A stretch of DNA of 64,000 bases from an uncultured Collinsella sp. (GCA_937966215.1 CALCKK010000039.1:4452-68451), one strand, 5' to 3'. Positions 5,132-64,000 are shown, counted from the first letter of the stretch. Notes: generated from the letters alone by a model not told the origin. Numbers and translations are program-made.

Positions 5132-6280
5132 ATGGCCAAGAATTCAGGTCCCGTACGTACCGTTCATGCTCGCACGACGGGTAAAGAGCGCGATGAGATG
5201 ATCGCCACCACCAAGGCCGAGATCGAGAAGAAGTTCGGTCAAGGCTCCATCATGAGGTACGGCGACGGTGGCCCCGAGCTCGAGGTCGAGGCCATCCCTA
5301 CGGGCGCTCTGGCACTCGATGCCGCTCTGGGTATCGGCGGTGTGCCGCGCGGCCGAATCGTCGAGATCTACGGTCCCGAGTCCTCCGGTAAGACGACGCT
5401 TTCGCTCGAGATCCTGGCCGAGGCCCAGGCAATGGGTGGCGTGGTGGCATTTATCGATGCCGAGCACGCGCTCGATCCCACGTATGCCGCGCGCATTGGC
5501 GTGGATATCGACGAGGTACTGATTTCCCAGCCTGATACGGGTGAGCAGGCGCTCGAGATTGTTGACATGCTCGTGCGTTCCGGCGCCATCGATGCCATCG
5601 TCGTCGACTCCGTCGCCGCGCTGACCCCGCGTGCCGAGATCGAGGGAGAGATCGGCGATACCACGGTCGGTTTGCAAGCTCGCCTGATGAGTCAGGCGCT
5701 CCGCAAGCTCGCCGGCTCGCTGTCCAAGTCCAACACGACATGCATCTTCATTAACCAGCTGCGAGAGAAGATCGGCGTCATGTTCGGCAACCCCGAGACC
5801 ACGACGGGCGGCCGCGCCCTTAAGTTCTTCTCTTCGGTGCGTATCGACATTCGCCGCATCGACAGCATTAAGCTTAAGGATGAGGTTATCGGTAACCGCG
5901 TGCGCGCCAAGGTCGTTAAGAACAAGGTGGCAGCTCCGTTCCGTTCTGCTGAGTTCGACATCATGTACGGTACGGGCATCTCTAAGGAGGGCTCGATTCT
6001 GGACATGGCTGTCGAGTGCGGCATTTGCAAGAAGATGGGCTCCTGGTTTGCCTATGGCGAGGACAAGCTCGGCAACGGTCGCGAGGCCGCCAAGGCGTTC
6101 CTGCGCGAACACCCCGATTGCGCCGACGAGATTGAGCATAAGGTCCGCCTTGCCTGCGGGCTTGAGTTTGATGACGATGCTCCGTCCGAGGTCGAGCTGA
6201 CCGATCAGCCTGCGCCTGAGGAGTTTGACGAGCTTTACGCCATCGATGGTTCCGCCATGCTCGATGATGACGACGAGTAG
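5132..6280 (+). CDS. recA: Recombinase RecA
   Basis: Walker [19 protein letters not shown] and the L1/L2 regions are present. The ATG at 5132 is preceded by aagaggaggg, so the upstream TTG at 5111 is unlikely to be the start. Confidence 0.97.
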
Positions 6281-6291
6281 CGGTTACGCTC

Positions 6292-6984
6292 ATGTCGTAT
6301 ACGGTGACCGAGGCCACGGTCGTCTTTCCCGATAAGAAGGCGGCCTCCTCGTTCTCGAGCGGGTATGCGTCCAAAAAGCCTTGCGCACATATCGATTGTG
6401 AGCTTGAGGGCGGTTTTGAGCGGTCCATTTGGATTCCCGTGCGGGTCGCGCGCCTGTATGTCAAAAATCGCCCCGATCTTCCCTGTGATTGGGATAACTT
6501 TCGTGAAGCGGTGCAGCTCATCGAGCGTAAATGTGCACTTACCATGGTGACCGAGATGCTATCGCGACGCGACCATGCGACGGGTGAGGTCCGTGACAAG
6601 TTGTCACGCTACGGCTTTCGCCAGCCCGCGATCGATTTCGCCGTCGAGCGCGCCACCGAGTATCGCTTTTTAGACGAGAACCGCTTTTGCTCGTACTTTA
6701 TCGAGGAACGCAAGCGGCGCGGTTGGGGACAGCGTAAAATCGAGACCGAGCTCAAGCGCCGTCATGTCGTGCTCGATGACATTCCCGGTTATCCCGAGGA
6801 TTATTTTGCCGTCGAAGACGATTTGGCGCGTGCGTCAGCCCTGCTCGCCAAGCGGCGTGTTCCAGAGACGCGCGGATTCGAAAAACTGGTTCGGTTTTTG
6901 ATGGGCAAGGGCTTCTCGTATCACATCGCCGCCGATGCCGTTAAGGCACGTCTCGATGCCGAACGTGAGGAATGTGCGGTTTAG
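6292..6984 (+). CDS. recX: RecA regulator RecX (with N-terminal extension)
   Basis: The C-terminal two thirds (LSRRDHATGEVRDKLSRYGFRQPAIDFAVERATEYRFLDENRFCSYFIEERKRRGWGQRKIETELKRRHV) show RecX helical repeats. The gene lies immediately downstream of recA. Confidence 0.85.
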   Translation: MSYTVTEATVVFPDKKAASSFSSGYASKKPCAHIDCELEGGFERSIWIPVRVARLYVKNRPDLPCDWDNFREAVQLIERKCALTMVTEMLSRRDHATGEVRDKLSRYGFRQPAIDFAVERATEYRFLDENRFCSYFIEERKRRGWGQRKIETELKRRHVVLDDIPGYPEDYFAVEDDLARASALLAKRRVPETRGFEKLVRFLMGKGFSYHIAADAVKARLDAEREECAV

Positions 6985-7235
6985 GCGTATGCGTTTTGTG
7001 GCCCTGCCGTTCACCGCGTTTTAGCCGCCGTGCTGGGGCCATTTATTTGACAGTTGTTGTGGTTCAACGTACGATAAACACTGTCATTTGCTTTGTGATA
7101 TGTGCTCATCTGTGATGAGTTTGTTTATATGTTTACCTGTATCCGACCCGCATAAGCTGCGCCCATATTACTCAAATGTCGCGAGCCGTTCGTAAGGACG
7201 GTTCGCTTTGTTGTGTAACGAATCCATAAAAAGGA

Positions 7236-8792
7236 GTGAGCATGCCTATCATCGCAGCGCTCGTTGGCATCGTTTTGGGTGCCATCGCCGCCATTGCCTA
7301 CATGCGCACCGCCAAGCAGGGTAGTCTTCACGAGGCCGACGAAAAAATCCAGTCGGCACACGCACAGGCTGAGTCCCTGATCGGTGATGCTAAGCGTCAG
7401 GCCGAGACCCTCAAAAAAGAGGCTCTGCTCGAGGCTAAAGAGGAGATCATCAAGAACAAGCAGGCCGCTGAGGCCGAGGACAAGCAGCGTAAGAACGAGA
7501 TTCGTACGCTCGAGAACCGCGTGATGCAGCGCGAGGAATCCCTCGATCGCCGCAACGACGCTCTCGACAAGCGCGAGCATCAGCTGTCCAGCCAGGCCGG
7601 TCAGGTCGAGAAGCGCTCCCGTGAGCTCGAGGAGCTCTGCGCAAAGCAGACCTCCGAGCTCGAGCGTATCGCCGACCTTACCCGCGAGGACGCCCACAAG
7701 GAGCTCCTCGATAAGGTTCGCGGCGAGGTCACCCACGAGGCCGCCACGATCATTCGCGAGTCCGAGCAGCAGGTTCGCGCCGAGTGCCACAAGACCGCCC
7801 AGGAGATTCTGTCTCTGGCGATTCAGCGCTGCGCTGCCGATCACACTGCCGAGGTCACCGTTACCTCCGTGCACATTCCCTCTGATGACCTCAAGGGCCG
7901 TATCATCGGTCGCGAGGGTCGCAACATCCGGACCTTCGAGCAGGTTTCCGGCGTCAACCTCGTGATCGACGACACGCCCGAGACCGTCGTTCTTTCGAGC
8001 TTCGACCCGGTCCGTCGTGAGACCGCCCGTGTCGCCCTCGAGAACCTCATCGCCGACGGCCGCATTCACCCTGCCCGTATCGAGGAGATGTATCACAAGG
8101 CCGCCGACCTGGTTCAGCAGCGCGTGCGCGAGGCTGGCGAGCAGGCTGCCTTCGATACCGGCATCCACGATCTGCACCCCGAGATCGTCAAGACCCTTGG
8201 TGCCCTGCGCTACCGTACCTCGTTTGGTCAGAACGTGCTTCAGCATTCCCTCGAGGTCTCTGATCTGTGCGGCGTGATGGCTTCCGAGCTTGGCCTGGAC
8301 GTTGTGACCGCCAAGCGCGCCGGCCTGCTTCATGACCTGGGCAAGGCAATCGACCACGACGTCGAGGGCCCGCATGCCGTCATCGGCGCCGAGCTTGCCC
8401 GCCGTTATGGCGAGAAGCCCGTTATCGTCCATGCTATTGAGGCTCACCATGCCGATGTCGACCCCAACACGGTGCTCGATGTCCTGGTGCAGGCCGCCGA
8501 TGCTGTCTCTGCCTCTCGCCCCGGTGCCCGTCGCGAGTCTGCCGAGAACTACATCAAGCGTCTTGAGAAGCTCGAGGAGATCGCCAACTCCCATGACGGC
8601 GTCGAACGTACCTATGCCATGCAGGCCGGTCGCGAGGTCCACGTCATGGTCCAGCCGGACAAGATCTCCGATGCCCAGTCCACGGTCCTGGCTCACGATA
8701 TCGCCCATCAGATCGAGGAAGAGATGGAGTATCCCGGTCAGGTGCGCGTCGTCGTGATTCGCGAGAGCCGCGCTGTCGATATCGCTAAATAA
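7236..8792 (+). CDS. rny: Ribonuclease Y
   Basis: N-terminal TM helix, coiled coil, KH domain ([15 protein letters not shown]) and HD domain ([11 protein letters not shown]...HH). Confidence 0.95.
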
Positions 8793-54735: not shown

Positions 54736-55875
54736 TCAACAACGACATGCGGCAGCTAGAAGCATTGTACCAAGCAGGAAAAGCGTCACGGAAGCTGCGA
54801 CCCAGTTGTTGTCGCCGGTCTTGGGGAGTAACGCAGTTGTCGCGGTGGCGGTTGCGGTCTTGGGCTTATAGGACGTGGACACCGTGGTCTTGGTTACTGT
54901 CGTTGTTGTCTTGGTTGTCGCGGCCGCGGGCTTCAGCGAGGGATTTGCCGTGGGTACCGTGGTGGGCTCTCCGGTAGCGGGGTTGGCATTGGCGGGAGAC
55001 TTGTCCGTGCTATCGCCCAGCACGTCGTGTCCATCGGTCTCCCCCGCCGGAGGCGTGGCCACATCGGGCTCAACCACCACATGCGGTGCCACCGCACCGG
55101 AGGCGTCCACCACGCCGCTAGCACCAAAAGCCCCACCAGCAGGCGTCACAAACCGCGCAGATACAAGTGACCCGCCCGTGCTCGCAAGGCCGCCGTCGGC
55201 ACCGGTCGCATCGAGCCACGAGGCGTCGACGGAAAGCCGACAGCCGGCCGCACCGTCGCCAAGGCCCGCATCCTGCAGACACACGCCGTAGGCGCGCACG
55301 CCCGCTCCGGACCCGGCGCCCGCGGCGACGAAGCGCCCGCCGCCGCGCACGGCCATATCGCCTGCGATCACGCCGGCGACCGCCTCGTCCGTAATATCGG
55401 CCCCATCCGCCCGCGCATCGACGGTGCATCCGTCCACCACGAGCGCCTGCGAGACGTGGATCCCGCACTGTGAGCCCGTCGCCGTCAGGGTCCCGGTACC
55501 GCGAAGCGTCAGGTTGCCCCACACCTCCATGCCGCACAGCGTGATGTCCGCATCGGGCGCATGCGACTCCGTCACGGAGTTTTGCCCGGCAAGCGTCAGC
55601 ACCAGGTCGCCTTCGGCGCCGATGGCCTCCCCCGCGTAGCCGTTAAGCTCCAGGTGGTCGGCATCGGTCCAGGCCCAGCCGGGGCCCGACGCGCCCGGCT
55701 CGTAGTACGTCTCGCCCGCGATGATGAGGCTCTCCGCGCCCGCGGCATAAGAAGGCCCGCCCAGCAAAACGCATAGGCAGGCCATGGCAGCGATCGCGAT
55801 GTGATGACGGCTGGTGTGGGACTCGGCAGCAAACATACCCGCTCCGATCTTCGCAGGAGCCAATAGAATGTGCAC
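54736..55875 (-). CDS. LPXTG cell-wall-anchored surface protein
   Basis: Signal peptide (IAIAAMACLCVLLGGPSYAAGA), a Gly/Ala/Asp-rich beta-like region, a Thr/Lys/Pro stalk and a C-terminal LPKTG motif with a hydrophobic helix and tail. The start is possibly Met14. Confidence 0.8.
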   Translation of the reverse strand: MHILLAPAKIGAGMFAAESHTSRHHIAIAAMACLCVLLGGPSYAAGAESLIIAGETYYEPGASGPGWAWTDADHLELNGYAGEAIGAEGDLVLTLAGQNSVTESHAPDADITLCGMEVWGNLTLRGTGTLTATGSQCGIHVSQALVVDGCTVDARADGADITDEAVAGVIAGDMAVRGGGRFVAAGAGSGAGVRAYGVCLQDAGLGDGAAGCRLSVDASWLDATGADGGLASTGGSLVSARFVTPAGGAFGASGVVDASGAVAPHVVVEPDVATPPAGETDGHDVLGDSTDKSPANANPATGEPTTVPTANPSLKPAAATTKTTTTVTKTTVSTSYKPKTATATATTALLPKTGDNNWVAASVTLFLLGTMLLAAACRC

Positions 55876-56077
55876 CAGAAAATGCCCTGGTAGCAGCAGT
55901 TATTAGTTTAGCGAGATCAGACGATGAGCAAAGAATAAAACCGTGATCAACTCCCAAAATTAGGTGTAAATCGTTTTGCCAGTCGGCGAAAGGAAGAATC
56001 GCCTCGAGTCGATTGGCGTTCATAAATTCCTAAGTCTGTAACAAAGGACCCTTACAGGTTGAAATCGTAAGAATAGC

Positions 56078-57871
56078 CTACTTTGACAATTGCTTAAAAT
56101 CCTGAGCTGATGATTCCGCAGCCTCAACCATTGTTAACCAATCGTCTAATTTTGGAGGACGAACGGTCCATAAAGTATCTCGGCCCTTCAGCACATCTTC
56201 ATTTGGTGGAACCATTGCACATATAGCTTTGTTTCCGTACTGATCATCTGGGCTTAAGACTAGCTTACGTTCAGAATCTTTTATTTGGTCTGCTGAGCAT
56301 TCTGAAGAACCAATTACTAGAGTAGTCTGTGCAAAACCGCAGAATGCCTCTTTGCTTCCAAGCTTAACAGCTATAGGCTTAATCCAGCGCGCTAAAGAGG
56401 GGTATTCAAAGTTTGGGACTTCATCCCCTTCTAGATTAAACCCATGTGATTCCCAACTATATACAATCGTTTCGCCATCGAGCAGTCTTGCTGCATCTTT
56501 AATATTTGCGACTTCTCCTTTAGTGATTTTAAAATAATCAGGGAAAGGCATTTCGCCGTCCGCAGCCCTGTTAATAGTTTCTAACGCAACCGCAAGACCG
56601 TATATGGCATTTACTTCGGCAACCACATCATCCCTGAGGCCGAGATAAAAATAGAGAGCACTCGTGCCATCGATTCGAAGCTCCACTTTTTCATCTTCGG
56701 CTTCGCTTAAGAATCGATAAGTTCTTACTACATCTCGAGAACGCTTATTGAGTAATTTGTTAAATGAAAACTCATAGTTAATCGTTCCGCCGGACTGGCT
56801 GCCGATCCATTTAAAGCTCAATCGAAAGGTTTCCGTCGCGTCATGGGCAGAAAAGAAAGCTCCCTTCGTTCCATGAGTGGCCTTATCAACTATTAGATGT
56901 AGTTCACCACAGCCTTCCCAGAACAACGAAGCCGACCTTATGCAAGTTGATGTGGGCAGATCAAGGGTCTTAATGATTCCCTTTCGAATACCATCGCAGG
57001 AACGTCCAACGGGCAATTGGTAGGCCTGATCAATCACTTCCGCCGGCAACGAAGTGAAGGGCATACCATACTCGATAAAATTTTTGGCCTGTTCCTTCTC
57101 ATCGTCAGTCCCTGCAGTGATTTTCAGTGAAAACCTTAATGGATGCAGCATTGAAGCAATTGGCGTCTTTTCAATTACGTCGATTGCGATTCGACCTGCT
57201 CCCGGGGTTACTAGAATTTGGGACATAACAACGCCAGGGGCACATGCGCAAAAATCATCGCGTTTGTCGTATTCTGAGAGCACGTGAACTGAATATGCAT
57301 AGTAAGGGTCCAGTTTATCAAGATGGGAACATAGATCGCGCAGCCTATTTTCGAGAATGGCTGGATCGCTGCAGTCTGGAAGATTGGCCATGGAGAGCAG
57401 TTTCGCAGCATACTCAGAGACCTCTTCTTTTCCATTTGAAAAGTAATAATCAATTACTTCTGGGTGTTTGGACGCCCAGCCATCAACTCTTGAAAGGCCA
57501 TCCCAGACGAATTTTGTACCAGAAGTTTCAACCAGCTCCTTAGCCCATCTTAGATTCTCATTTGTGGGATCTAATGGCATAACAAGATGCCAGCTATTTA
57601 TTTTTACATGCAAATCGACTGTGGTTGCCGATAATTCCTGCCACGAATTTTCAATCTGAGCTTTCTGGCCGTTTTTTAGATTTTCAGCAAATTTCTTAAT
57701 TTGATATATGTCGACCGTTTCAGCATCAAGGTAAACGATAAGGTCAATTCCTCCATCGCCCCTAGAAGGTCGAATTTTAATGGCGTCTCGCTCTTCAAGA
57801 GAAATAAACGTCGCAAGAACTGACTCGATATCCTCACCTGAATATCGAGTCCAAGGGATACGTCCAGTCAT
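56078..57871 (-). CDS. Large protein with N-terminal PD-(D/E)xK (Mrr-like) nuclease motif and an unrecognised C-terminal 450 aa
   Basis: The N-terminus WTRYSGEDIESVLATFISL...RPSRGDGGIDLIVY...VDIYQIKKF matches the Mrr-cat pattern (GDGGID ... Q-x-K). No P-loop was found. It lies 41 nt downstream of the RT gene on the same strand in AT-rich DNA. Confidence 0.6.
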   Translation of the reverse strand: MTGRIPWTRYSGEDIESVLATFISLEERDAIKIRPSRGDGGIDLIVYLDAETVDIYQIKKFAENLKNGQKAQIENSWQELSATTVDLHVKINSWHLVMPLDPTNENLRWAKELVETSGTKFVWDGLSRVDGWASKHPEVIDYYFSNGKEEVSEYAAKLLSMANLPDCSDPAILENRLRDLCSHLDKLDPYYAYSVHVLSEYDKRDDFCACAPGVVMSQILVTPGAGRIAIDVIEKTPIASMLHPLRFSLKITAGTDDEKEQAKNFIEYGMPFTSLPAEVIDQAYQLPVGRSCDGIRKGIIKTLDLPTSTCIRSASLFWEGCGELHLIVDKATHGTKGAFFSAHDATETFRLSFKWIGSQSGGTINYEFSFNKLLNKRSRDVVRTYRFLSEAEDEKVELRIDGTSALYFYLGLRDDVVAEVNAIYGLAVALETINRAADGEMPFPDYFKITKGEVANIKDAARLLDGETIVYSWESHGFNLEGDEVPNFEYPSLARWIKPIAVKLGSKEAFCGFAQTTLVIGSSECSADQIKDSERKLVLSPDDQYGNKAICAMVPPNEDVLKGRDTLWTVRPPKLDDWLTMVEAAESSAQDFKQLSK

Positions 57872-57911
57872 CGCTGCACCTCAATAGAAGCTAAATAAAA
57901 AAATCCAATCA

Positions 57912-59459
57912 CTAATTTAAATATTCGGGTTTAATGAACTTGATTCCCCTCTTTTTAATGGCCCTCCACTCATCAGACGGTAACCACTCTTTTGATCGAA
58001 TATGATAGAGAAAAAGCCACATCTCTTCAAATTCACGCCCTTCTATTGGGAATTCCTTAGCATGCTTTGTAAGACGATCAAGCAAATATCCATCGCCAAA
58101 ATGCTTGGCGTAAAGATAGACGAATAAGTATAAAAGACAGTCATTAGCCCTTTTGATATCTTCAAAATCGGGCATATCAACCTTAAAATCGAACTTAATT
58201 GCGTAGTAAAGGCCGTAGCAAACCGAAAGGTGATCACCGTGATTAAGACAATCAGAGATAATAACCTTTGAGAGACACTCAATATAATCTTTGTCCATAC
58301 TCAAAGGCTCAATTATTGCTTTCTCGAATGACGGCAGCAAATAAGGAAATACGATTGCAAGGTGCATAGCATAGTCCCGAAAATAGGCTTTTGCCGAAGG
58401 CTTTAGTGAGCGCGATGCGAGCATTTTGAACGCGTATAGCAGTATTGAGGCATTATTCTGGTAAGAAGGAAGAAGACTGGTCGCGTATTCCAAAAAAGAT
58501 GACACATCTTTGTAATCAAGCGGGTCCGATTTATTAGGTTCATTGCGCCTTAATGAATTTACCCAGCCATTAGAAAGCGCTATGGGTAATTCTAGTATTT
58601 CAGTTTTCTTCTGATTCAGTGTTAGACGAAACTTGGACAGCTCTTCCTGCAACGAGATGATGAACTGCTCGGCCTCGTATCGCGATGCGACATAACAATT
58701 GTAGTCATCGATATTTCGAATAAATCTATAGCCTTTGTTAAATAAACTAGCATCGATAACTGTGAGAATTAATTCTGAGACAACATTGGAAGCGTGTGGA
58801 CCGATAAGTAATCCGTGGGTTTCGCCGTCGCACGCCTTTTGAAGTAGTCCGTCAATTTCGTTCGCCCAACCGCCCCGACGGGAACTTCTATTTTGCTTTG
58901 CGTTATCCCTTCCCATAATCGCCCAAGGCAAAGAATGCGTGTATATACTCGGAAAACAAGTGGAGATGTCGCATTTCACGAGGTATTTTTTACCAATAAG
59001 AATAGTTGGTTCAGGGTTAGGATCAGTCATCCAGTTTGAATAGTTCATTTGGAATATTGCTTGCGAATCGGGAATCACACGAGGATGAATCCTGCTAACT
59101 GCATAAGGCTGCGGTAATGTGTATTTTTGAACGTGACGGACTATATCGCCCCAATTGTCGGCTAAACCGCGGACGAGTCGCTCGTAGGTGAAGGGGGTTG
59201 GTATGCCGAATTTTCGATATTGTCCATTGCACCGAATGTAATTAAATCTAATCCACTCTGAGCGTGAATCGTTGCTTGCCATTTTGCGATTATTGCAATA
59301 CGTAACAAATTGTTCTGCCGAAAAAATCGGCGGTAGTTTGTCGGCAAACCATCCGGCAAGCATTAGTCCGTTATAAACAGCATCTTCGGATAACTCTTGC
59401 CAATATGCCCAGTAAGGCTTGGAAGGAGCAAAGAGCTTGTCACATAATTGAGATTCCAT
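57912..59459 (-). CDS. Reverse transcriptase of the UG/Abi (defence-associated) type, helical C-terminal half
   Basis: The RT palm motifs occur in order: LVKCDISTCFPSIYTHSLPWA (A), GLLIGPHASNVVSELIL (B), FIRNIDDYNCYV (C, with DD) and LTLNQKKTEIL (D/E). The C-terminal 200 aa or so are helical and contain an R-x4-H match (FRDYAMH). There is no maturase or endonuclease domain. Confidence 0.8.
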   Translation of the reverse strand: MESQLCDKLFAPSKPYWAYWQELSEDAVYNGLMLAGWFADKLPPIFSAEQFVTYCNNRKMASNDSRSEWIRFNYIRCNGQYRKFGIPTPFTYERLVRGLADNWGDIVRHVQKYTLPQPYAVSRIHPRVIPDSQAIFQMNYSNWMTDPNPEPTILIGKKYLVKCDISTCFPSIYTHSLPWAIMGRDNAKQNRSSRRGGWANEIDGLLQKACDGETHGLLIGPHASNVVSELILTVIDASLFNKGYRFIRNIDDYNCYVASRYEAEQFIISLQEELSKFRLTLNQKKTEILELPIALSNGWVNSLRRNEPNKSDPLDYKDVSSFLEYATSLLPSYQNNASILLYAFKMLASRSLKPSAKAYFRDYAMHLAIVFPYLLPSFEKAIIEPLSMDKDYIECLSKVIISDCLNHGDHLSVCYGLYYAIKFDFKVDMPDFEDIKRANDCLLYLFVYLYAKHFGDGYLLDRLTKHAKEFPIEGREFEEMWLFLYHIRSKEWLPSDEWRAIKKRGIKFIKPEYLN

Positions 59460-59979
59460 TGCCGACCTTAAGATAGGCTACTTAATGAACAATAGTTTAA
59501 TCAAATAGCTGCATAGATATTTATGAAATACTTCAATTTAGAAGTGTGAATCACATTGAAATTGCTGTAATTAATTTAAAGGATTTCTATGTGCCTGCAG
59601 TCAACCTATTAATACCGATCCGATTGCTTATACTAAATGCTGGCTCGGGTCTACGTAACTAATACGAGCCAGTTATATTGCTCCTATTATATTGAGGTCC
59701 GAGAGAAGCGGGGCCATCGCACTCCCCAGATGTCGCCAAACAAGTCCTTCGCGTACGCCCTGTCTCTGCTACGAGCTTGTCCGTTTAAGTAGGCTTTATC
59801 GTGCTCCCGTGACGCATATCCTTAATGTAATTACTTCTATCCTAAAAGTCCTCCAACGGCAGGCGAAGGCCATCATATGAGCCACTAGAAACGGCCAAAC
59901 TGCGTCACGAGATAGCTTGCTTGGACAATCGGTAGATACGGAGTGTTGCCACTAATCGACATGTAATCTATCCATTCTC

Positions 59980-60639
59980 TCAGCGCCATATAGGACCTGC
60001 TAGTTGCATTTGGCGCTGAATTGCACCTCTCTTGTTTAGCTGGCATAGAGTTTTGTATGATGCGGCAAGAGTGTTTTCTCTTTCAAAGAGATCTTGCCGT
60101 TGATCGGGCTCATCTAACCTTTCAGAAGCCTGTTCAAGCGTCCATTGATATTCCCTTGCATTCTTGAGCATCTTATTAAATAGAATCTGATACTGATACA
60201 TTGAAAACAAAAGGGATTGATAATCTTCTATGAATTCGGCAATTGCCTTTCCACTCTTTCCCTTGAAGCAAAATCTCGCCTCCATGGCGAGCGATCTCAT
60301 TTCATCAAGCTTTAAATGCAATTTAAGTTGAAGGTCGGCATCTAACACCTTATTAATTGAGGCTGAGATTGATTGCAGGTACGTGGTGTTAGTCAGCCAT
60401 ACAAATAGTAGGTCGATTGCCATTTGCGGTTCGTCGTCATGTTCCAAGTTCTTCGCGTTTTTTGCGTAAACGCTCATGAGATTATCGACGGTTATCCATA
60501 TATTTAAACGTCGATTGAATAGAGACTGTTTATTGCTGAGACGAGCCTGGTAACAAGAAATGAGCAACGCGATGATTGCCACAATCGCTGAGATGTACTC
60601 AGGTAAATTTGTTAGGTTCATTGTCTCCTCCGCAGCCAA
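59980..60639 (-). CDS. Single-pass membrane protein with helical cytoplasmic domain, unknown function
   Basis: TM helix YISAIVAIIALLISCY near the N-terminus, with the remaining 180 aa predicted helical. It lies in AT-rich DNA between the SMODS operon and the RT module. Confidence 0.5.
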   Translation of the reverse strand: MAAEETMNLTNLPEYISAIVAIIALLISCYQARLSNKQSLFNRRLNIWITVDNLMSVYAKNAKNLEHDDEPQMAIDLLFVWLTNTTYLQSISASINKVLDADLQLKLHLKLDEMRSLAMEARFCFKGKSGKAIAEFIEDYQSLLFSMYQYQILFNKMLKNAREYQWTLEQASERLDEPDQRQDLFERENTLAASYKTLCQLNKRGAIQRQMQLAGPIWR

Positions 60640-60814
60640 AAATCAATTGGCAATACTACAATTATCGATCTGCATTCAGGATTCTCTGACAATAGGAATT
60701 ACGTTACTGAGGTCATTGATCGTAGTAGAATATCCGATTGATTTGAAAGTCGTTCCACATCGTAGCTTATGCTGTTAGTTGATTGGTTATATGGGCTGTT
60801 TAGGGGATAATTCC

Positions 60815-61366
60815 CTAATTGATATCCTTTCCTTTAAACGACGTGGATAGCATCATCAGAAGAACGTCGTTGACCATTCGTCCCCTGAAGTTGCAAAGCG
60901 CGGTAAATGAAATCATACTAAGCAGTTTCATGCCCTGCTCATCGATCCTTCCTTTTTCAGGAGGGCAGTAGACGATTAATCCGCACTGGGGCTTTTTACC
61001 TCGGACAACAGCATTGAATTCTTCGTTGCTTAGATATTCATGAACAATAATCATTAAAAGCGCTGATTGAGCTTCATCAAGGTGTTTGTTGGTGACATGC
61101 TGAATATTTCTTGTTTTAATAAGGCCGGAATTGACCAAATCTTTTCGAATGTCATTAAAATCATCAAGTCCTGCGATAATAGCGATTTTCTTTGCGAATA
61201 ACGCTAGCCCGAATCTGATCAGGGCTTGAGTAATGCCAGCAAAAGATCCCGCGGCAACTACCAACAGTGCGATGAACCCAAATACTGAGCAGATAGCAGT
61301 TATGCAGTCACGGGCGCTATAAAAGATTTGTAGGAGCTGTAGTATTATTTCCAACAATTTATCCAT
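60815..61366 (-). CDS. 2TM protein with small alpha/beta C-terminal domain (candidate effector of the SMODS enzyme)
   Basis: Two hydrophobic helices (ITAICSVFGFIALLVVAAGSFAGI and LIRFGLALFAKKIAIIAGL) precede a domain of about 110 aa with alternating strand/helix character. The start lies 10 nt after the SMODS gene stop. Confidence 0.55.
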   Translation of the reverse strand: MDKLLEIILQLLQIFYSARDCITAICSVFGFIALLVVAAGSFAGITQALIRFGLALFAKKIAIIAGLDDFNDIRKDLVNSGLIKTRNIQHVTNKHLDEAQSALLMIIVHEYLSNEEFNAVVRGKKPQCGLIVYCPPEKGRIDEQGMKLLSMISFTALCNFRGRMVNDVLLMMLSTSFKGKDIN

Positions 61367-61375
61367 ATCAATTAT

Positions 61376-62698
61376 CTACTCCACATTAATGAAAAACGGA
61401 CGGGTCCATCGTACGCAATAGCCTTTACGCACAACAAAGCACTGCACGATATGTTTTCCGGTATAGGCTGTTTCTTCTCGTCTTGAAGTTTTCCCTTCGT
61501 TGGGAGCTTCAAAGCCCCCACGCTGACAGCATCGCATAGCCTCTTCACCGGTATTGGTGATCTGCCATCTTACACGCCCGTCTTTAATTGGGCTGTATGT
61601 GACTTTATATATCACTGAGGACCCTTTCGGAACCGCCGGCCCATCATTTGGAAGATTGATTTGTTTGCCCGAAGGAAGAGTGGCAGTTGCAGTGATGGTT
61701 GCATTTGGTTTTTGAGATTGCAAGGGATACTTCAGCTTTTGTCTATGGGTAACGGACAACGCGCGTTCCTGTGCAATTCGCCTCGTTCCAGCTGCGTAAG
61801 ATCTCGATTCATTCCCTGCTGGGAAATTAATGCCAAGAATGGTTCTCCAAATATCGTTGCCAGTGCCTTTTTCTGCAAGAAGATCAAGTTGTTCGATCAG
61901 TCTATTTGAAAACTCAAGGAAGTCGTTGTGTTTGTACTTTTCCGCTAGGTTATTTTCGCAAAATGCGGGATCTTCGATAAATGGAGTGTTGCCAGAACTT
62001 AAATCTTCTGAGTACGCTTCTGACAAATTGGCCATTGTTTGCATTACACGCTCTTCAATCGTGAGGTGCGGTTCTGGTAAATTATCAGCAATCATTTTCT
62101 CAAGAGTAATTCCCTTTGGATATTTGACATTCGATGGACAGTTTTCTCTTCGCCACCATTTAAAAATTTTCACCAAAGGCTTATATGCATTTTCATACCC
62201 TTGATTAACTTCTGTTGTCCAAGAAATATGTTTCTTCGGATCAGTTCGCTTCCAAGTGCCTTCCTTAGATGATCCAATATTAAGAAAACCGTTTTCATCT
62301 CTGACCAAGGGCACAACATCAAGATGGAAACTTGCCATATCTATACCGACAGAATGATTTTGAATAGTCGTTTTTTGGTAACAGCTGCGTAGTTTGAGGG
62401 CCTTTTCAAGCTCATTCAATACAAAAGTCGGAGAATCGTTTGTTGAACGACTAGTTTCGATGACAACGTCAATATCGCAGCAATCCGAATTCTTTTTTGG
62501 ACGAATGAACGTTTGCTTAGCGTAAGATCCTGACAAATAGCTGTGAACATAAATATGTTTATAGCTCTCACAAGTTTTCAAGTGATTCCTAAGATTCTGG
62601 TGAAGTCTGCTTGCTTCATCGATAGTAGATTTACTTGGGTTGATATCTTTTAGAAAAGACTCGAAGTCGGTACTGTTTGCCACAATTCTCCAATTCAA
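61376..62698 (-). CDS. SMODS-family nucleotidyltransferase fused to an AGS-C sensor domain
   Basis: Pol-beta NTase signature LSGSYAKQTFIRPKKNSDCCDIDVVI (GS ... DxD) plus a third acidic residue in HLDVVPL. The C-terminus VRWQITNTGEEAMRCCQRGGFEAP...ETAYTGKHIVQCFVVRKGYCV resembles the AGS-C pattern (assigned from memory). Confidence 0.75.
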   Translation of the reverse strand: MNWRIVANSTDFESFLKDINPSKSTIDEASRLHQNLRNHLKTCESYKHIYVHSYLSGSYAKQTFIRPKKNSDCCDIDVVIETSRSTNDSPTFVLNELEKALKLRSCYQKTTIQNHSVGIDMASFHLDVVPLVRDENGFLNIGSSKEGTWKRTDPKKHISWTTEVNQGYENAYKPLVKIFKWWRRENCPSNVKYPKGITLEKMIADNLPEPHLTIEERVMQTMANLSEAYSEDLSSGNTPFIEDPAFCENNLAEKYKHNDFLEFSNRLIEQLDLLAEKGTGNDIWRTILGINFPAGNESRSYAAGTRRIAQERALSVTHRQKLKYPLQSQKPNATITATATLPSGKQINLPNDGPAVPKGSSVIYKVTYSPIKDGRVRWQITNTGEEAMRCCQRGGFEAPNEGKTSRREETAYTGKHIVQCFVVRKGYCVRWTRPFFINVE

Positions 62699-62819
62699 AC
62701 GTATGTTCTATTATAAGTAATAATATTCGAGTAGATTAATTTATGTGACATCAATTTAAATACTGATTCGAATCTTAGATTGATAGTTTCTGCCAGGGTG
62801 TTTTTGGTTTTCCATTTAT

Positions 62820-62865
62820 GAAATCGACCCCTGAGGATCTGTTTTACTCCTCAAGGGTCGATTTC
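62820..62865. other. Long hairpin in AT-rich spacer at the island edge
   Basis: gaaatcgacccctgagga-(10 nt)-tcctcaagggtcgatttc is an 18-bp stem with one mismatch. Confidence 0.6.
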
Positions 62866-63310
62866 AATTTATATATCAGTTTAGAAAACAGTTGATGATT
62901 CAGAGACCGGAAGGCCCCCGAAGATCGTGTCGAAAATGTGAGCCTGATTCTAAATCAAATTATGTAGTCATCATGACCCTAGCATAGAGTCTTTTATTTG
63001 GTTTGCTTAACCAAGTACCAAATAGCGAAGACACATTCAAGTGCTTACGGAGGGTTACGTTGGTTCAAAAGTTGGCTTAGTCAATTTTTGAACCAACGTA
63101 AGTCAAAACTCATGGAGAGAGTTTACGTGGAAGTAGCTAAATTTCGGCTTCCGTTATTCGCAAGTTGCTGCTTGCGTTGTAGTTAAATCAATGAAAGATA
63201 AGCATGCAATTGAGATGCTGACCGCTATCATCCAGACGAATGATAGTTACCACTCCCCCATGCTTCAGATTACGGCATGAATAATGCGCCGAGTGTATAT
63301 CTAAGCGCGG

Positions 63311-64000
63311 CTATCTCGCTACGCCTTCACCACAGGTGTCGCTCCCGAGCTTGATAGGCGACAGTTCGATGTGGTCTTTACTTGCGTCGAATTGACCCAG
63401 CAGGCCAGCTATGGCGGCGGATACACTATCATCGATGTAAAGACCGCATTTGCCTCCACGCTCAGCTGCTCGCGCGAACTCGACGAGCTCGTTTCGAATT
63501 CCCTCGCCGTCAAGCTGGAAGAAATACCGCTTGTTTTGAGAAGGATCCTCTTTGCGTACCTCGAAGTAGTCTGTTTTCCACCAGGGAGCGGGTACGTAAA
63601 TGTAGCCATCCGTGCCGGAAACCACAAGCGACCCCTCAGATTTAGCCGCCTTGCCGAAAACCGCCTCGCCGTAGCCATCCTCGAATGCCAGTCGGATCTC
63701 ACCAAACGCGTCAAAGCCAGCGTAACCTTCAAGGTCGGCCCTTACAAAATCGGCTGATTGATAATTAGTTCCGAGTAGCTGCAAGATGGGCAGCAACGCT
63801 GCTGGACCCCAGGCTTTGGAGCTCGACCACTTGCCCTCAACGCTCGAGATGTCCTCACTGCCAAGATCAACAAGGCTGGTGCATACAGCGCGCACCGACA
63901 GAACTCGTCCAATGTGACCACTCTTGGCGAGCAGAAGCAGTCGATGGTAGGCCGTTGAATACGCCGTCTTGATCGCGTCGGCCAAAACGAGGCCCTTTGA
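63311..64000 (-). CDS. Gfo/Idh/MocA-family oxidoreductase, C-terminal part (5' end outside window)
   Basis: The frame stays open to the window edge upstream of the tracked TTG. AYSTAYHRLLLLAKSGHIGRVLSVRAV is typical of the junction into the Gfo/Idh/MocA C-terminal domain. Confidence 0.6.
   Translation of the reverse strand, partial: SKGLVLADAIKTAYSTAYHRLLLLAKSGHIGRVLSVRAVCTSLVDLGSEDISSVEGKWSSSKAWGPAALLPILQLLGTNYQSADFVRADLEGYAGFDAFGEIRLAFEDGYGEAVFGKAAKSEGSLVVSGTDGYIYVPAPWWKTDYFEVRKEDPSQNKRYFFQLDGEGIRNELVEFARAAERGGKCGLYIDDSVSAAIAGLLGQFDASKDHIELSPIKLGSDTCGEGVAR

What the first reader, a model, noticed from the sequence alone, without database searches (positions are those of the whole stretch)
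59980..62698. SMODS-AGS-C nucleotidyltransferase operon with 2TM and 1TM proteins instead of a classical CBASS effector
The 440-aa enzyme has an intact GS...DxD...D pol-beta NTase site (SMODS-type) and a C-terminal domain resembling AGS-C. It therefore probably makes a nucleotide second messenger in response to a sensed ligand. The next gene starts 10 nt downstream and encodes two TM helices plus a small alpha/beta domain of about 110 aa. A third gene, 175 nt further on, encodes a single-pass membrane protein. No Cap2/Cap3, SAVED, patatin, endonuclease or TIR effector is present. The layout recalls the SMODS-SLATT associations predicted in comparative-genomics work and the 2TM/1TM gene pairs of some phage-satellite defence systems. 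To my knowledge this combination has not been experimentally characterised. The 1TM gene could alternatively belong to the downstream RT module, since AbiA-small systems pair an RT with a SLATT membrane protein.
Basis: partly seen in the sequence, partly recalled or inferred. Interest (0 to 1): 0.8.

Follow-up and report, generated by a model that had tools for sequence, protein, structure and literature searches.

The report
Two-gene CBASS with membrane effector
This is an ordinary two-gene anti-phage alarm system (type I CBASS) in a gut Collinsella genome, in which a nucleotide cyclase is paired with a small membrane protein of an already catalogued but biochemically untested effector family; the third "membrane gene" is an unrelated neighbour.

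Summary

**Cyclase.** The 435/440-aa protein is a CD-NTase with SMODS (1.7e-35) and AGS-C (4e-20). Its active site is intact.

**Effector.** The 183-aa protein starts 9 nt downstream. It is not an alternative to a classical effector. It matches PADLOC's CBASS "Effector 1TM" model (1e-32), as do all 109 relatives tested. A cyclase sits directly upstream in every assessable locus with an intact homologue. It has one clear TM helix and a confidently modelled flavodoxin-like domain (pLDDT 91.6). That domain resembles no known nucleotide receptor fold.

**Wider family.** Relatives also occur in a type II CBASS and inside a type III-B CRISPR locus. Rare relatives carry TIR in place of the TM helix.

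**Third gene.** The 213-aa gene is an independent cassette. It occurs without CBASS or an RT in 9 of 9 assessable loci, and once upstream of the cyclase.

**Neighbours.** The RT is DRT4-like. The 597-aa gene is another separate cassette.

**Signal.** The predicted signal is cA3.

**Verdict.** This is a type I CBASS, a new member of a known kind. The sensor domain is the only fresh angle.

The parts
61376..62683 (-). CD-NTase cyclase gene with C-terminal AGS-C. It is 435 aa from GTG 62683; the mechanical ORF runs to TTG 62698, giving 440 aa.
   Evidence: Pfam SMODS 1.7e-35 and AGS_C 4.1e-20. PADLOC CBASS Cyclase PDLC00773 3.6e-79. The nearest solved structure is B. cereus CdnD 9sa4, E 1.6e-42. 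A GGAG lies 4 nt before the GTG. An identical contig has a 435-aa gene call.
62204..62674 (-). SMODS nucleotidyltransferase core. It holds SGSY (62522-62533), catalytic D70/D72 (62468-62476) and D122 (62318-62320). The lid residues are T147 and H152.
   Evidence: Pfam residues 9-165. Alignment to BcCdnD, where 9sa5 is the D-to-N catalytic mutant. Sequence read directly. Motif rules come from PMC13424991.
61382..61753 (-). AGS-C domain fused to the cyclase. The literature describes it as Ig-like.
   Evidence: Pfam PF18134 4.1e-20, residues 316-439 of the 440-aa ORF. The literature describes it as typical of type I CBASS.
60815..61366 (-). CBASS effector of the '1TM' class, 183 aa. It starts 9 nt after the cyclase stop.
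   Evidence: PADLOC PDLC00664 'Effector 1TM' 1.1e-32, C3a59 3.7e-30 and Mem_04 4.2e-8. A cyclase lies directly upstream in every assessable locus with an intact homologue.
61229..61309 (-). Predicted transmembrane helix of the effector (residues ~20-46), preceded by an amphipathic N-terminal helix.
   Evidence: Kyte-Doolittle 19-residue window peaks at 2.6. AlphaFold2 models a continuous helix over residues 2-57.
60833..61201 (-). Cytosolic flavodoxin-like alpha/beta domain of the effector (residues 56-178), the presumed signal receptor. It contains the near-invariant N87, N159, G162, R163, L164 and D167. The sixth, R51, lies just upstream in the juxtamembrane segment.
   Evidence: Domain-only AlphaFold2 gives pLDDT 91.6 and pTM 0.87 with 5 beta/alpha units. 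Conservation was measured over 109 relatives. Foldseek finds no significant match; the best are DNPH1 and CheY-like at E >= 4.6e-3.
60689..62939 (.). Extent of the mobile CBASS cassette: the block of DNA homology shared with other Collinsella loci, ending in the intergenic regions on both sides.
   Evidence: blastn breakpoints fall at about 60689/60729 and 62760/62939 in L024, L025, L026 and L055.
59980..60621 (-). It is an independent single-gene cassette of unknown function.
   Evidence: No hit in Pfam, PADLOC, NCBIfam or PHROGs. There are 377 homologous clusters, and the 120 listed are 85-96% identical. Its own homology block is 59951-60646. It has no CBASS or RT neighbour in L001-L009 and lies upstream of the cyclase in L026.
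57912..59459 (-). NOT part of the system: a neighbouring DRT4-like defence reverse transcriptase.
   Evidence: PADLOC Drt4 3.9e-186. NCBIfam Drt4 1.3e-107, at 360.8 bits, which is below the 450-bit equivalog cut-off. It is absent from L023, which shares the CBASS and 213-aa genes.
56078..57871 (-). NOT part of the system: a 597-aa protein forming another conserved cassette next to the hotspot anchor.
   Evidence: Only weak LmuA N-terminal similarity, 1.3e-4. Homologues at 84% identity sit beside Gabija-like genes and not an RT.

Best explanation
Window 60689-62939 carries a self-contained two-gene type I CBASS anti-phage cassette. It sits in a variable defence-island hotspot of a Collinsella aerofaciens-like chromosome.

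Proposed mechanism:
1. On phage infection, the CD-NTase is activated. The cue is unknown, and the fused Ig-like AGS-C domain may modulate it.
2. The CD-NTase makes a cyclic oligonucleotide, most likely the trinucleotide 3',3',3'-cA3.
3. The signal binds the cytosolic flavodoxin-like domain of the 183-aa membrane-anchored '1TM' effector. The candidate ligand site is formed by the conserved R51, N87, N159, R163 and D167.
4. Ligand binding drives oligomerisation or rearrangement of the N-terminal TM helices. This depolarises or permeabilises the cytoplasmic membrane and aborts the infection.

What is shown: domain identities, the intact active site, conserved and tight cyclase-effector linkage, membership of the catalogued CBASS 1TM effector family, and the cassette boundaries.

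What is inferred: the defence function, the identity of the signal, the sensor role of the alpha/beta domain, and membrane disruption.

The 213-aa membrane protein, the DRT4-like RT and the 597-aa protein are separate neighbouring cassettes.
For: Identity of the two genes:
- The cyclase matches SMODS and AGS_C and PADLOC CBASS Cyclase at 3.6e-79. It has GS/DxD/D aligned to BcCdnD.
- The effector matches PADLOC CBASS 'Effector 1TM' at 1.1e-32, and 109 of 109 relatives also match.

Linkage:
- Across the loci, every assessable intact effector homologue has a cyclase directly upstream. Those with gene calls show 8-10 nt gaps.
- Cyclase/effector identities fall together: 99/99, 97/93, 91/81, 70/65, 65/53 and 64/47%.
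- DNA homology blocks end in the flanking intergenic regions.

The soluble domain as sensor:
- The family is almost uniformly a short TM plus this domain. It comprises 236 clusters at 50% identity.
- Two clusters replace the TM with TIR: P0280 (Pfam TIR_2 1.4e-11) and P0289 (PADLOC CBASS TIR effector 4.8e-7).
- The family also serves a type II CBASS made of cyclase, Cap2, Cap3 and effector (L069).

The cA3 prediction:
- The SGSY motif and lid residues T and H are identical to cA3-making BcCdnD, following the rules set out in PMC13424991.
- A 43%-identical AGS-C cyclase of the same PADLOC subfamily is paired with NucC. NucC structures carry bound cAAA (PMC10419184).
- The type II cyclase partnered with this effector family is EcCdnD-like, at 7e-80.

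Literature:
- Type I CBASS with AGS-C cyclases and TM effectors defend against phage.
- TM effectors act by disrupting the inner membrane.
Against: - There is no experimental evidence for this locus or for any member of the 1TM family in the literature searched.
- The soluble domain has no significant structural match to STING, SAVED, CARF, the Cap15 beta-barrel or the Cap1 CARF-like domain. Ligand binding is therefore inferred from architecture and context only.
- The best weak structural hits include the nucleotide hydrolase DNPH1, so an enzymatic role is not excluded.
- The preprint reports no AGS-C fusions among type I clade D cyclases. This cyclase's nearest solved relatives are clade D, so its clade, and the transfer of specificity rules, is uncertain.
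- The NucC-paired paralogue has Ala, not Thr, at lid 1.
- The promoter scan gave no more sites than shuffled sequence.
- The full-length AlphaFold2 model has only moderate confidence (mean pLDDT 79), so the membrane topology is uncertain.
Confidence: 0.82

Rival explanations
1. One reading: a three-gene system in which the cyclase signals to a 2TM protein and a 1TM protein working together, comparable to 2TM/1TM pairs in satellite-encoded defences.
For: The three genes share a strand and are adjacent in this window and in L023 and L065. Both downstream proteins are membrane-anchored.
Against: - The 213-aa gene is absent from most effector-bearing loci and present near CBASS in only three. In those it lies downstream (L023), upstream of the cyclase (L026), or beside a decayed effector remnant (L055).
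- It occurs without any cyclase or effector in L001-L009.
- In L023 the cyclase and effector are 99% identical to the window, but the 213-aa protein is only 86% identical. DNA homology breaks between the effector and the 213-aa gene in L024, L026 and L055.
- It has its own GGAGG-ATG start and a 193-nt gap.
Confidence: 0.04
2. The 213-aa membrane protein is the partner of the downstream reverse transcriptase, in an AbiA-small/SLATT-like two-gene RT system.
For: It lies upstream of the RT on the same strand.
Against: - The RT is DRT4-like (PADLOC 3.9e-186), and AbiA is not among its top matches.
- No SLATT or any other family matches the 213-aa protein.
- A 520-nt gap separates the two genes.
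- Loci holding the 213-aa gene lack any RT homologue.
- L023 keeps the 213-aa gene but has different cargo in place of the RT.
Confidence: 0.03
3. Guard logic as in Panoptes. The cyclase makes its nucleotide constitutively to hold the membrane effector inactive. Phage sponges or nucleases that deplete the signal then release the effector.
For: A small membrane effector held inactive by cA3 exists in type II Panoptes (PMC13577387). The predicted signal here is also cA3. The effector's sensor fold is novel, so the sign of its response is unknown.
Against: - Panoptes uses a minimal CRISPR polymerase (mCpol), not a CD-NTase.
- This enzyme matches CBASS cyclase models and carries AGS-C, a domain linked to phage specificity in type I CBASS.
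- Homologous effectors sit in a type II CBASS with Cap2/Cap3 and in a type III CRISPR locus. In both kinds of system, signal production is known to be induced by infection.
Confidence: 0.06
4. The alpha/beta domain of the 183-aa protein is itself an enzyme anchored at the membrane, for example a DNPH1/nucleoside deoxyribosyltransferase-like nucleotide hydrolase. The TM helix would then be only an anchor and not the killing device.
For: The top Foldseek hits for the domain-only model include DNPH1/Rcl nucleotide hydrolases (E 4.6e-3, TM about 0.5). The domain has conserved polar residues N87, N159, R163 and D167.
Against: - The structural matches are not significant, and CheY-like receivers fit better (TM 0.63).
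- Relatives replace the TM segment with TIR while keeping the domain. That is the pattern expected of a sensor module joined to interchangeable effector modules.
- The family-wide architecture is TM plus domain.
Confidence: 0.07

Closest known systems
Type I CBASS with an AGS-C-fused CD-NTase and a transmembrane effector (e.g. CdnB06-Cap15, CdnF04-SLATT6; Richmond-Buccola et al., bioRxiv 10.1101/2023.05.21.541620)
   Same: A two-gene operon with a SMODS cyclase carrying C-terminal AGS-C, a small membrane effector immediately downstream and no ancillary genes. About 40% of type I systems have AGS-C, and TM effectors are the commonest class.
   Different: The effector is neither Cap15 (beta-barrel), S-4TM nor SLATT. 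It belongs to the '1TM' class and has a flavodoxin-like domain. The host is a gut actinobacterium, not the gammaproteobacteria tested.
CBASS '1TM' effector class (Millman et al. 2020 typing; PADLOC PDLC00664) / type III CRISPR accessory 'C3a59'
   Same: Direct HMM membership at 1.1e-32 with near full-length coverage, and 109 of 109 relatives match. The Gloeothece type III-B homologue matches C3a59 at 4e-69 and is 31% identical to this effector.
   Different: Nothing distinguishes it from the family. The family has no Pfam model and no experimental study in the literature searched.
Cap15 (CBASS 2TM + beta-barrel cyclic-dinucleotide receptor; PDB 7N34/7N35)
   Same: A small N-terminal TM segment plus a C-terminal cytosolic receptor. 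Cap15 oligomerises on ligand binding and ruptures the inner membrane, which makes it the working model for this effector.
   Different: The receptor domain here is alpha/beta, not an 8-stranded beta-barrel. There is no sequence or structural match. The likely ligand is a trinucleotide and not a uracil-containing dinucleotide.
Type III CRISPR membrane effectors Cam1, Csx23 and Cap1 (cA4-gated tetrameric pores)
   Same: A short TM region is fused to a compact cOA-binding cytosolic domain, and the outcome is membrane depolarisation. Homologues of the present effector also sit in a type III-B locus.
   Different: Cam1 uses a canonical CARF. Csx23 and Cap1 use mixed or antiparallel sheets with two helices. 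The model here has five parallel beta/alpha units. No CARF protein appears among the top 50 Foldseek hits.
B. cereus CdnD (PDB 9SA4; cA3 synthase of a type II CBASS; PMC13424991)
   Same: It is the nearest solved homologue of the cyclase core (E 1.6e-42 over residues 1-295). Both have the SGSY motif, the DxD and D catalytic residues, and lid residues T and H.
   Different: BcCdnD lacks AGS-C, works with Cap2/Cap3 and signals to the Cap4 nuclease.
DRT4 (neighbouring gene, not part of the finding)
   Same: The 515-aa RT matches PADLOC Drt4 over its full length, at 3.9e-186.
   Different: It scores below NCBIfam's Drt4 equivalog cut-off (360.8 against 450 bits). It is unrelated in function to the CBASS cassette.

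Membership tests
CBASS (type I) | CD-NTase/SMODS cyclase with an intact GS...DxD...D active site | tested here: met
   Pfam SMODS 1.7e-35 and PADLOC Cyclase 3.6e-79. SGSY, D70/D72 and D122 align to BcCdnD.
CBASS (type I) | An effector gene adjacent to, and conserved with, the cyclase | tested here: met
   PADLOC CBASS 'Effector 1TM' 1.1e-32. A cyclase lies directly upstream in all assessable loci with intact effector homologues.
CBASS (type I) | No ancillary genes (Cap2/Cap3, HORMA/TRIP13, or the type IV set) | tested here: met
   None of the flanking genes matches such families in Pfam, PADLOC or NCBIfam. The cassette boundaries enclose only two genes.
CBASS (type I) | Makes a cyclic oligonucleotide on infection and protects against phage | not testable with these tools
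   Needs biochemistry and phage challenge. The only inference is from motifs, which predict cA3.
CBASS '1TM' effector family (PADLOC PDLC00664) | Near full-length HMM match plus an N-terminal TM segment | tested here: met
   Residues 21-178 match profile positions 15-172 of 174, at E 1.1e-32. There is one strong hydrophobic segment at residues 20-46.
Cap15 / S-2TM-beta | C-terminal 8-stranded beta-barrel receptor; Pfam S_2TMBeta | tested here: not met
   No Pfam hit at E <= 1. The model is alpha/beta. PDB sequence and fold searches give no Cap15 match.
SLATT (SLATT_1-6) | Match to SLATT profile HMMs | tested here: not met
   Neither the 183-aa nor the 213-aa protein matches any SLATT family at E <= 1 in Pfam.
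Cap13 (TM-STING) / Cap14 (TM-SAVED) / Cap16 (TM-NUDIX) | A STING, SAVED or NUDIX receptor domain behind the TM segment | tested here: not met
   There are no such Pfam or PADLOC hits, and none appears among the top 50 Foldseek PDB matches.
CARF / CARF-like membrane effectors (Cam1, Cap1) | A CARF Rossmann fold, or the Cap1 mixed-sheet CARF-like fold | tested here: inconclusive
   No CARF protein appears in the top 50 Foldseek hits, and the topology differs from the published Cap1 description. However, there is a weak PADLOC match to Mem_04 (4.2e-8), which its authors note may be a CARF 'diverged beyond recognition'. Cap1 coordinates may not yet be in the PDB copy.
   It is present near only 3 of about 46 effector-bearing loci, in varying positions. 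It is absent from all the others and occurs alone elsewhere.
DRT4 (neighbouring RT) | Full-length match to Drt4 models | tested here: met
   PADLOC Drt4 3.9e-186 over residues 14-513. The NCBIfam Drt4 match is below its equivalog cut-off, at 360.8 against 450 bits.

The most novel reading that the evidence does not exclude
The flavodoxin-like cytosolic domain of the '1TM' effector family is a previously unrecognised class of cyclic-oligoadenylate (probably cA3) receptor.

- It is structurally unrelated to CARF, SAVED, STING, the Cap15 barrel, and the Csx23 and Cap1 domains.
- It is shared between type I and type II CBASS and type III-B CRISPR-Cas.
- It is used modularly with either a pore-forming TM helix or a TIR domain.
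Probability: 0.4. Interest if true: 0.55.

Novelty: new member of a known kind. Interest (0 to 1): 0.28.

Why it matters
As a locus it adds little. It is one more type I CBASS in a defence island, beside a DRT4-like RT.

The value is twofold. First, the analysis corrects the three-gene reading. It also maps a recombination hotspot in Collinsella, a common human-gut genus, where single defence cassettes are swapped between a polysaccharide gene and a surface-protein gene.

Second, it singles out the 1TM effector family as a tractable target. The family is small (about 170-180 aa), confidently modelled, and linked to CBASS types I and II and to type III CRISPR. It still has no known ligand or mechanism. 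Solving it would add a receptor fold to the catalogue of nucleotide-sensing immune domains.

Tried and rejected
- **SLATT, S_2TMBeta, S_4TM, SAVED, STING and TIR families.** Pfam gave no match for either membrane protein.
- **PHROGs.** Nothing matched the effector, the 213-aa protein or the 597-aa protein.
- **PDB sequence searches with effector profiles.** These returned only spurious hits such as designed TIM barrels.
- **Foldseek.** The full-length model against PDB and viral structures, and the domain-only model against PDB, gave no significant match. The hits showed only a generic flavodoxin/CheY-like fold.
- **A conserved 189/190-aa gene upstream of the cyclase.** This was seen in two locus sets, but the two proteins are unrelated, so it was rejected.
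- **The 597-aa protein as a DRT4 partner.** Its homologues sit beside Gabija-like genes instead, so this was rejected.
- **Rfam on 55800-63400.** The only hit was a spurious mir-548 match to a palindrome.
- **Promoter and terminator scans.** These were no better than shuffled sequence.
- **Repeat search for cassette-boundary sites.** It found only short, probably chance, repeats and two hairpins.
- **Literature.** A search for 'C3a59' and for the Gloeothece accession found nothing relevant. The Millman 2020 and Duncan-Lowey 2021 papers are not held.
- **Formal CD-NTase clade assignment.** This was not possible without a reference set.


Full report
**Observation.** The region 56000-63300 is a low-GC island (0.36-0.47) between flanks of 0.55-0.72. 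All of its genes lie on the minus strand.

In order, the island holds:
- a 440-aa ORF (61376-62698)
- a 183-aa ORF (60815-61366)
- a 219-aa ORF (59980-60639)
- a 515-aa ORF (57912-59459)
- a 597-aa ORF (56078-57871)

Reading the sequence refines two starts. The first gene most likely begins at GTG 62683, behind a GGAG, giving 435 aa. The third most likely begins at ATG 60621, behind a GGAGG, giving 213 aa. An independent gene call on an identical metagenomic contig gives the same lengths of 435, 183, 213, 515 and 597 aa (L065). The cyclase stop and the effector ATG are 9 nt apart.

**The enzyme.** Pfam finds SMODS (1.7e-35) and AGS_C (4.1e-20). PADLOC finds a CBASS cyclase (PDLC00773, 3.6e-79). 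The nearest solved structure is B. cereus CdnD (9SA4, E 1.6e-42 over residues 1-295), followed by the Enterobacter and Salmonella CdnD enzymes.

The alignment shows SGSY, D70-x-D72 and D122 in the catalytic positions. 9SA5 is the D-to-N mutant at the first of these aspartates. The enzyme therefore looks active.

**The second gene is a catalogued CBASS effector.** It has no Pfam or NCBIfam family. It does match three PADLOC models:
- CBASS 'Effector 1TM' (PDLC00664, 1.1e-32, near full length)
- 'C3a59 trans-membrane' (3.7e-30)
- 'Mem_04', more weakly (4.2e-8); this is a type III CRISPR membrane protein with a globular domain

'1TM' is one of the effector types defined by Millman et al. 2020, as other papers use the term. 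Membrane proteins (1TM, 2TM, S4TM, SLATT) make up over 40% of CBASS effectors (PMC12480259; PMC10419184). About 40% of type I CBASS cyclases carry AGS-C, and several AGS-C cyclase plus TM-effector operons have been shown to defend E. coli (bioRxiv 10.1101/2023.05.21.541620).

**Anatomy of the effector.** Hydropathy gives one strong TM segment (residues ~20-46) after an amphipathic N-terminal helix. The second hydrophobic stretch is strand 1 of the soluble domain.

A domain-only AlphaFold2 model built on 40 diverse relatives is confident (pLDDT 91.6, pTM 0.87). It consists of five beta/alpha units. Foldseek against the PDB finds nothing significant. The best hits are DNPH1/Rcl (E 4.6e-3) and CheY-like receivers (TM about 0.63). 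No STING, SAVED, CARF, TIR or Cap15 appears in the top 50. The published description of the Cap1 CARF-like domain, a mixed sheet with two helices, also differs.

**Gene neighbourhoods.** Effector homologues came from exact-protein look-ups and from a scan of species-representative genomes. The scan returned 34 true loci, in Collinsella, Enteroscipio and Eggerthella/Eggerthellaceae.

In every assessable locus with an intact effector homologue, a SMODS-AGS_C cyclase lies directly upstream (tblastn). In two of these loci the cyclase is split by an insertion sequence. In one the effector gene lies at the contig edge, with the end of the cyclase just in view upstream. One further locus could not be assessed, because the effector gene itself is cut by the contig end. 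Another holds only a 69-aa effector remnant. Cyclase and effector identities fall together, from 99/99% to 64/47%.

The 213-aa protein is near CBASS in only three loci. It lies downstream in L023, upstream of the cyclase in L026, and beside the remnant in L055. Its own homologues form 377 clusters, and the 120 listed are 85-96% identical. They lie in loci with no cyclase, effector or RT.

**DNA comparison.** This delimits three blocks:
- a CBASS block at about 60689-62939
- a separate block for the 213-aa gene at about 59951-60646
- a conserved anchor at 55000-56000, covering the LPXTG-type surface protein gene; this anchor follows the variable cargo in nearly all Collinsella loci

In L023 (C. 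aerofaciens BIOML-A13) the cyclase and effector are 99% identical to the window. The 213-aa protein is only 86% identical, and the RT and 597-aa genes are replaced by other cargo.

The 597-aa protein's homologues sit next to Gabija-like genes, not an RT. The island is thus a mosaic of independent cassettes: [CBASS, two genes][213-aa gene][DRT4-like RT][597-aa gene][anchor].

**The effector family beyond this genus.** A profile of the soluble domain finds 236 clusters (50% identity) among 1.84 billion representatives. Nearly all are 160-185 aa, with the domain after a stretch of about 40 residues. All 109 that were tested match the PADLOC 1TM and C3a59 models.

Three contexts are informative:
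- Two clusters replace the TM segment with TIR: P0280 and P0289.
- One member is the effector of a type II CBASS, arranged as cyclase, Cap2, Cap3, effector (L069).
- The only hit among annotated plasmids is a 169-aa homologue (31% identity) inside the type III-B CRISPR-Cas locus of Gloeothece verrucosa PCC 7822. It lies between a TIR-TM gene next to the cas10/cmr genes on one side and cas1/cas2 on the other.

A domain kept constant while the N-terminal module changes, and used by both CBASS and Cas10 systems, is most simply a signal receptor.

**Which signal.** Three lines point to a cyclic trinucleotide, most likely cA3.
1. The specificity positions described in PMC13424991 are identical to those of cA3-making BcCdnD. 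These are the first residue of XGSX (S in SGSY), lid 1 (T) and lid 2 (H).
2. In L069, an AGS-C cyclase that is 43% identical over its full length, and of the same PADLOC subfamily, is paired with a NucC nuclease. NucC structures carry bound cAAA (PMC10419184).
3. The type II cyclase that partners this effector family is EcCdnD-like (7e-80), and Cas10 enzymes make cyclic oligoadenylates.

This remains an inference. The clade is unassigned, and the type I survey reported no AGS-C in clade D.

**Mechanism proposed.** Infection activates the cyclase, perhaps modulated by AGS-C. The cyclase makes cA3 or a similar signal. The signal binds the flavodoxin-like domain, and the TM helices oligomerise or rearrange. 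The membrane loses integrity or potential, and the infection aborts. This follows Cap15 and the Cam1, Csx23 and Cap1 effectors.

The rivals are all less likely, for the reasons given in their entries. They are a three-gene system, an RT-partner role for the 213-aa gene, Panoptes-like guard logic, and an enzymatic membrane-anchored domain.

**Verdict.** The sequence features are real and were described accurately. The novelty claim is not supported. This is a type I CBASS with an AGS-C cyclase and a 1TM-class effector, and so a new member of a known kind. The residual interest lies in the uncharacterised receptor domain of the 1TM family and in the Collinsella defence hotspot.

Noticed in passing
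window 55000-64000 (anchor block 55000-56000; upstream flank 63311-64000): A defence-island hotspot in Collinsella. Low-GC cargo varies between a polysaccharide-biosynthesis gene and an LPXTG-type surface protein gene (54736-55875). In other genomes the same site holds Gabija-like GajA/GajB, AbiH, HEPN_AbiU2, SocA_Panacea, RelB/YafQ, AAA_15/21 proteins, or a different CBASS variant.
   Followed up: partly
window 59980-60621 (-): The 213-aa single-pass membrane protein matches no family in four libraries. It is nevertheless kept at 85-96% identity across hundreds of Collinsella contigs as a roughly 700-bp single-gene cassette in changing contexts. It may be a stand-alone defence or hotspot-associated gene. 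In L023 its reading frame appears interrupted.
   Followed up: partly
window 56078-57871 (-): The 597-aa protein shows only weak LmuA N-terminal similarity (1.3e-4). It starts 40 nt after the DRT4-like RT here. In other genomes it lies beside Gabija-like genes and always directly upstream of the anchor gene.
   Followed up: partly
window 59460-59979: A 520-nt stretch between the 213-aa gene and the DRT4-like RT has no ORF of 60 aa or more on the coding (minus) strand and no Rfam match. It includes a higher-GC segment at about 59700-59900. Homology with L023 ends inside it, at about 59604.
   Followed up: no
window 62819-62866 and 63055-63101: Two strong hairpins lie upstream of the cyclase. 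One has 19-nt arms, 95% complementary, with a 10-nt loop. The other has 23-nt arms with a 1-nt loop, and it produced a spurious mir-548 Rfam hit on both strands. They may be terminators of the upstream gene or regulatory sites.
   Followed up: no
L069 2708-10066: One contig carries two CBASS systems side by side. The first is a type II system: an EcCdnD-like cyclase, Cap2, Cap3 and a 1TM-family effector. The second is a NucC nuclease followed by an AGS-C cyclase that is 43% identical to the window's cyclase.
   Followed up: yes
L066 (Gloeothece verrucosa PCC 7822 plasmid NC_014534.1, locus 6068-8411): [quoted passage not shown] This suggests two membrane-associated accessory effectors for a single Cas10.
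   Followed up: partly
P0280 (L067, L068) and P0289: These rare relatives replace the N-terminal TM segment of the effector family with a TIR domain. The contigs are too short to show their neighbours.
   Followed up: partly
L015 and L031 (3029-5990): In one Collinsella lineage an insertion sequence splits the CBASS cyclase into a SMODS fragment, a 430-aa HTH_38 transposase and an AGS_C fragment. The effector remains intact.
   Followed up: no
L055 4532-6207; protein P0176: This is a decayed CBASS. Only the last 69 codons of the effector (93% identical) survive, fused into a 273-aa ORF downstream of the 213-aa gene. The chimera recurs in 44 member sequences.
   Followed up: partly
L019-L022, L027 (Enteroscipio rubneri and related contigs): A CBASS variant with about 70% and 65% identity (cyclase and effector) rides on a conjugative element. 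It lies between relaxase/ParAB genes and TrbL/sortase-pilin genes, which suggests a route for horizontal spread among Coriobacteriia.
   Followed up: no
L073 104-1913: A distant effector homologue (P0240) lies upstream of, and overlaps by 14 nt, an AGS-C cyclase of a different PADLOC subfamily (PDLC00785). This is the reverse of the gene order seen here.
   Followed up: partly
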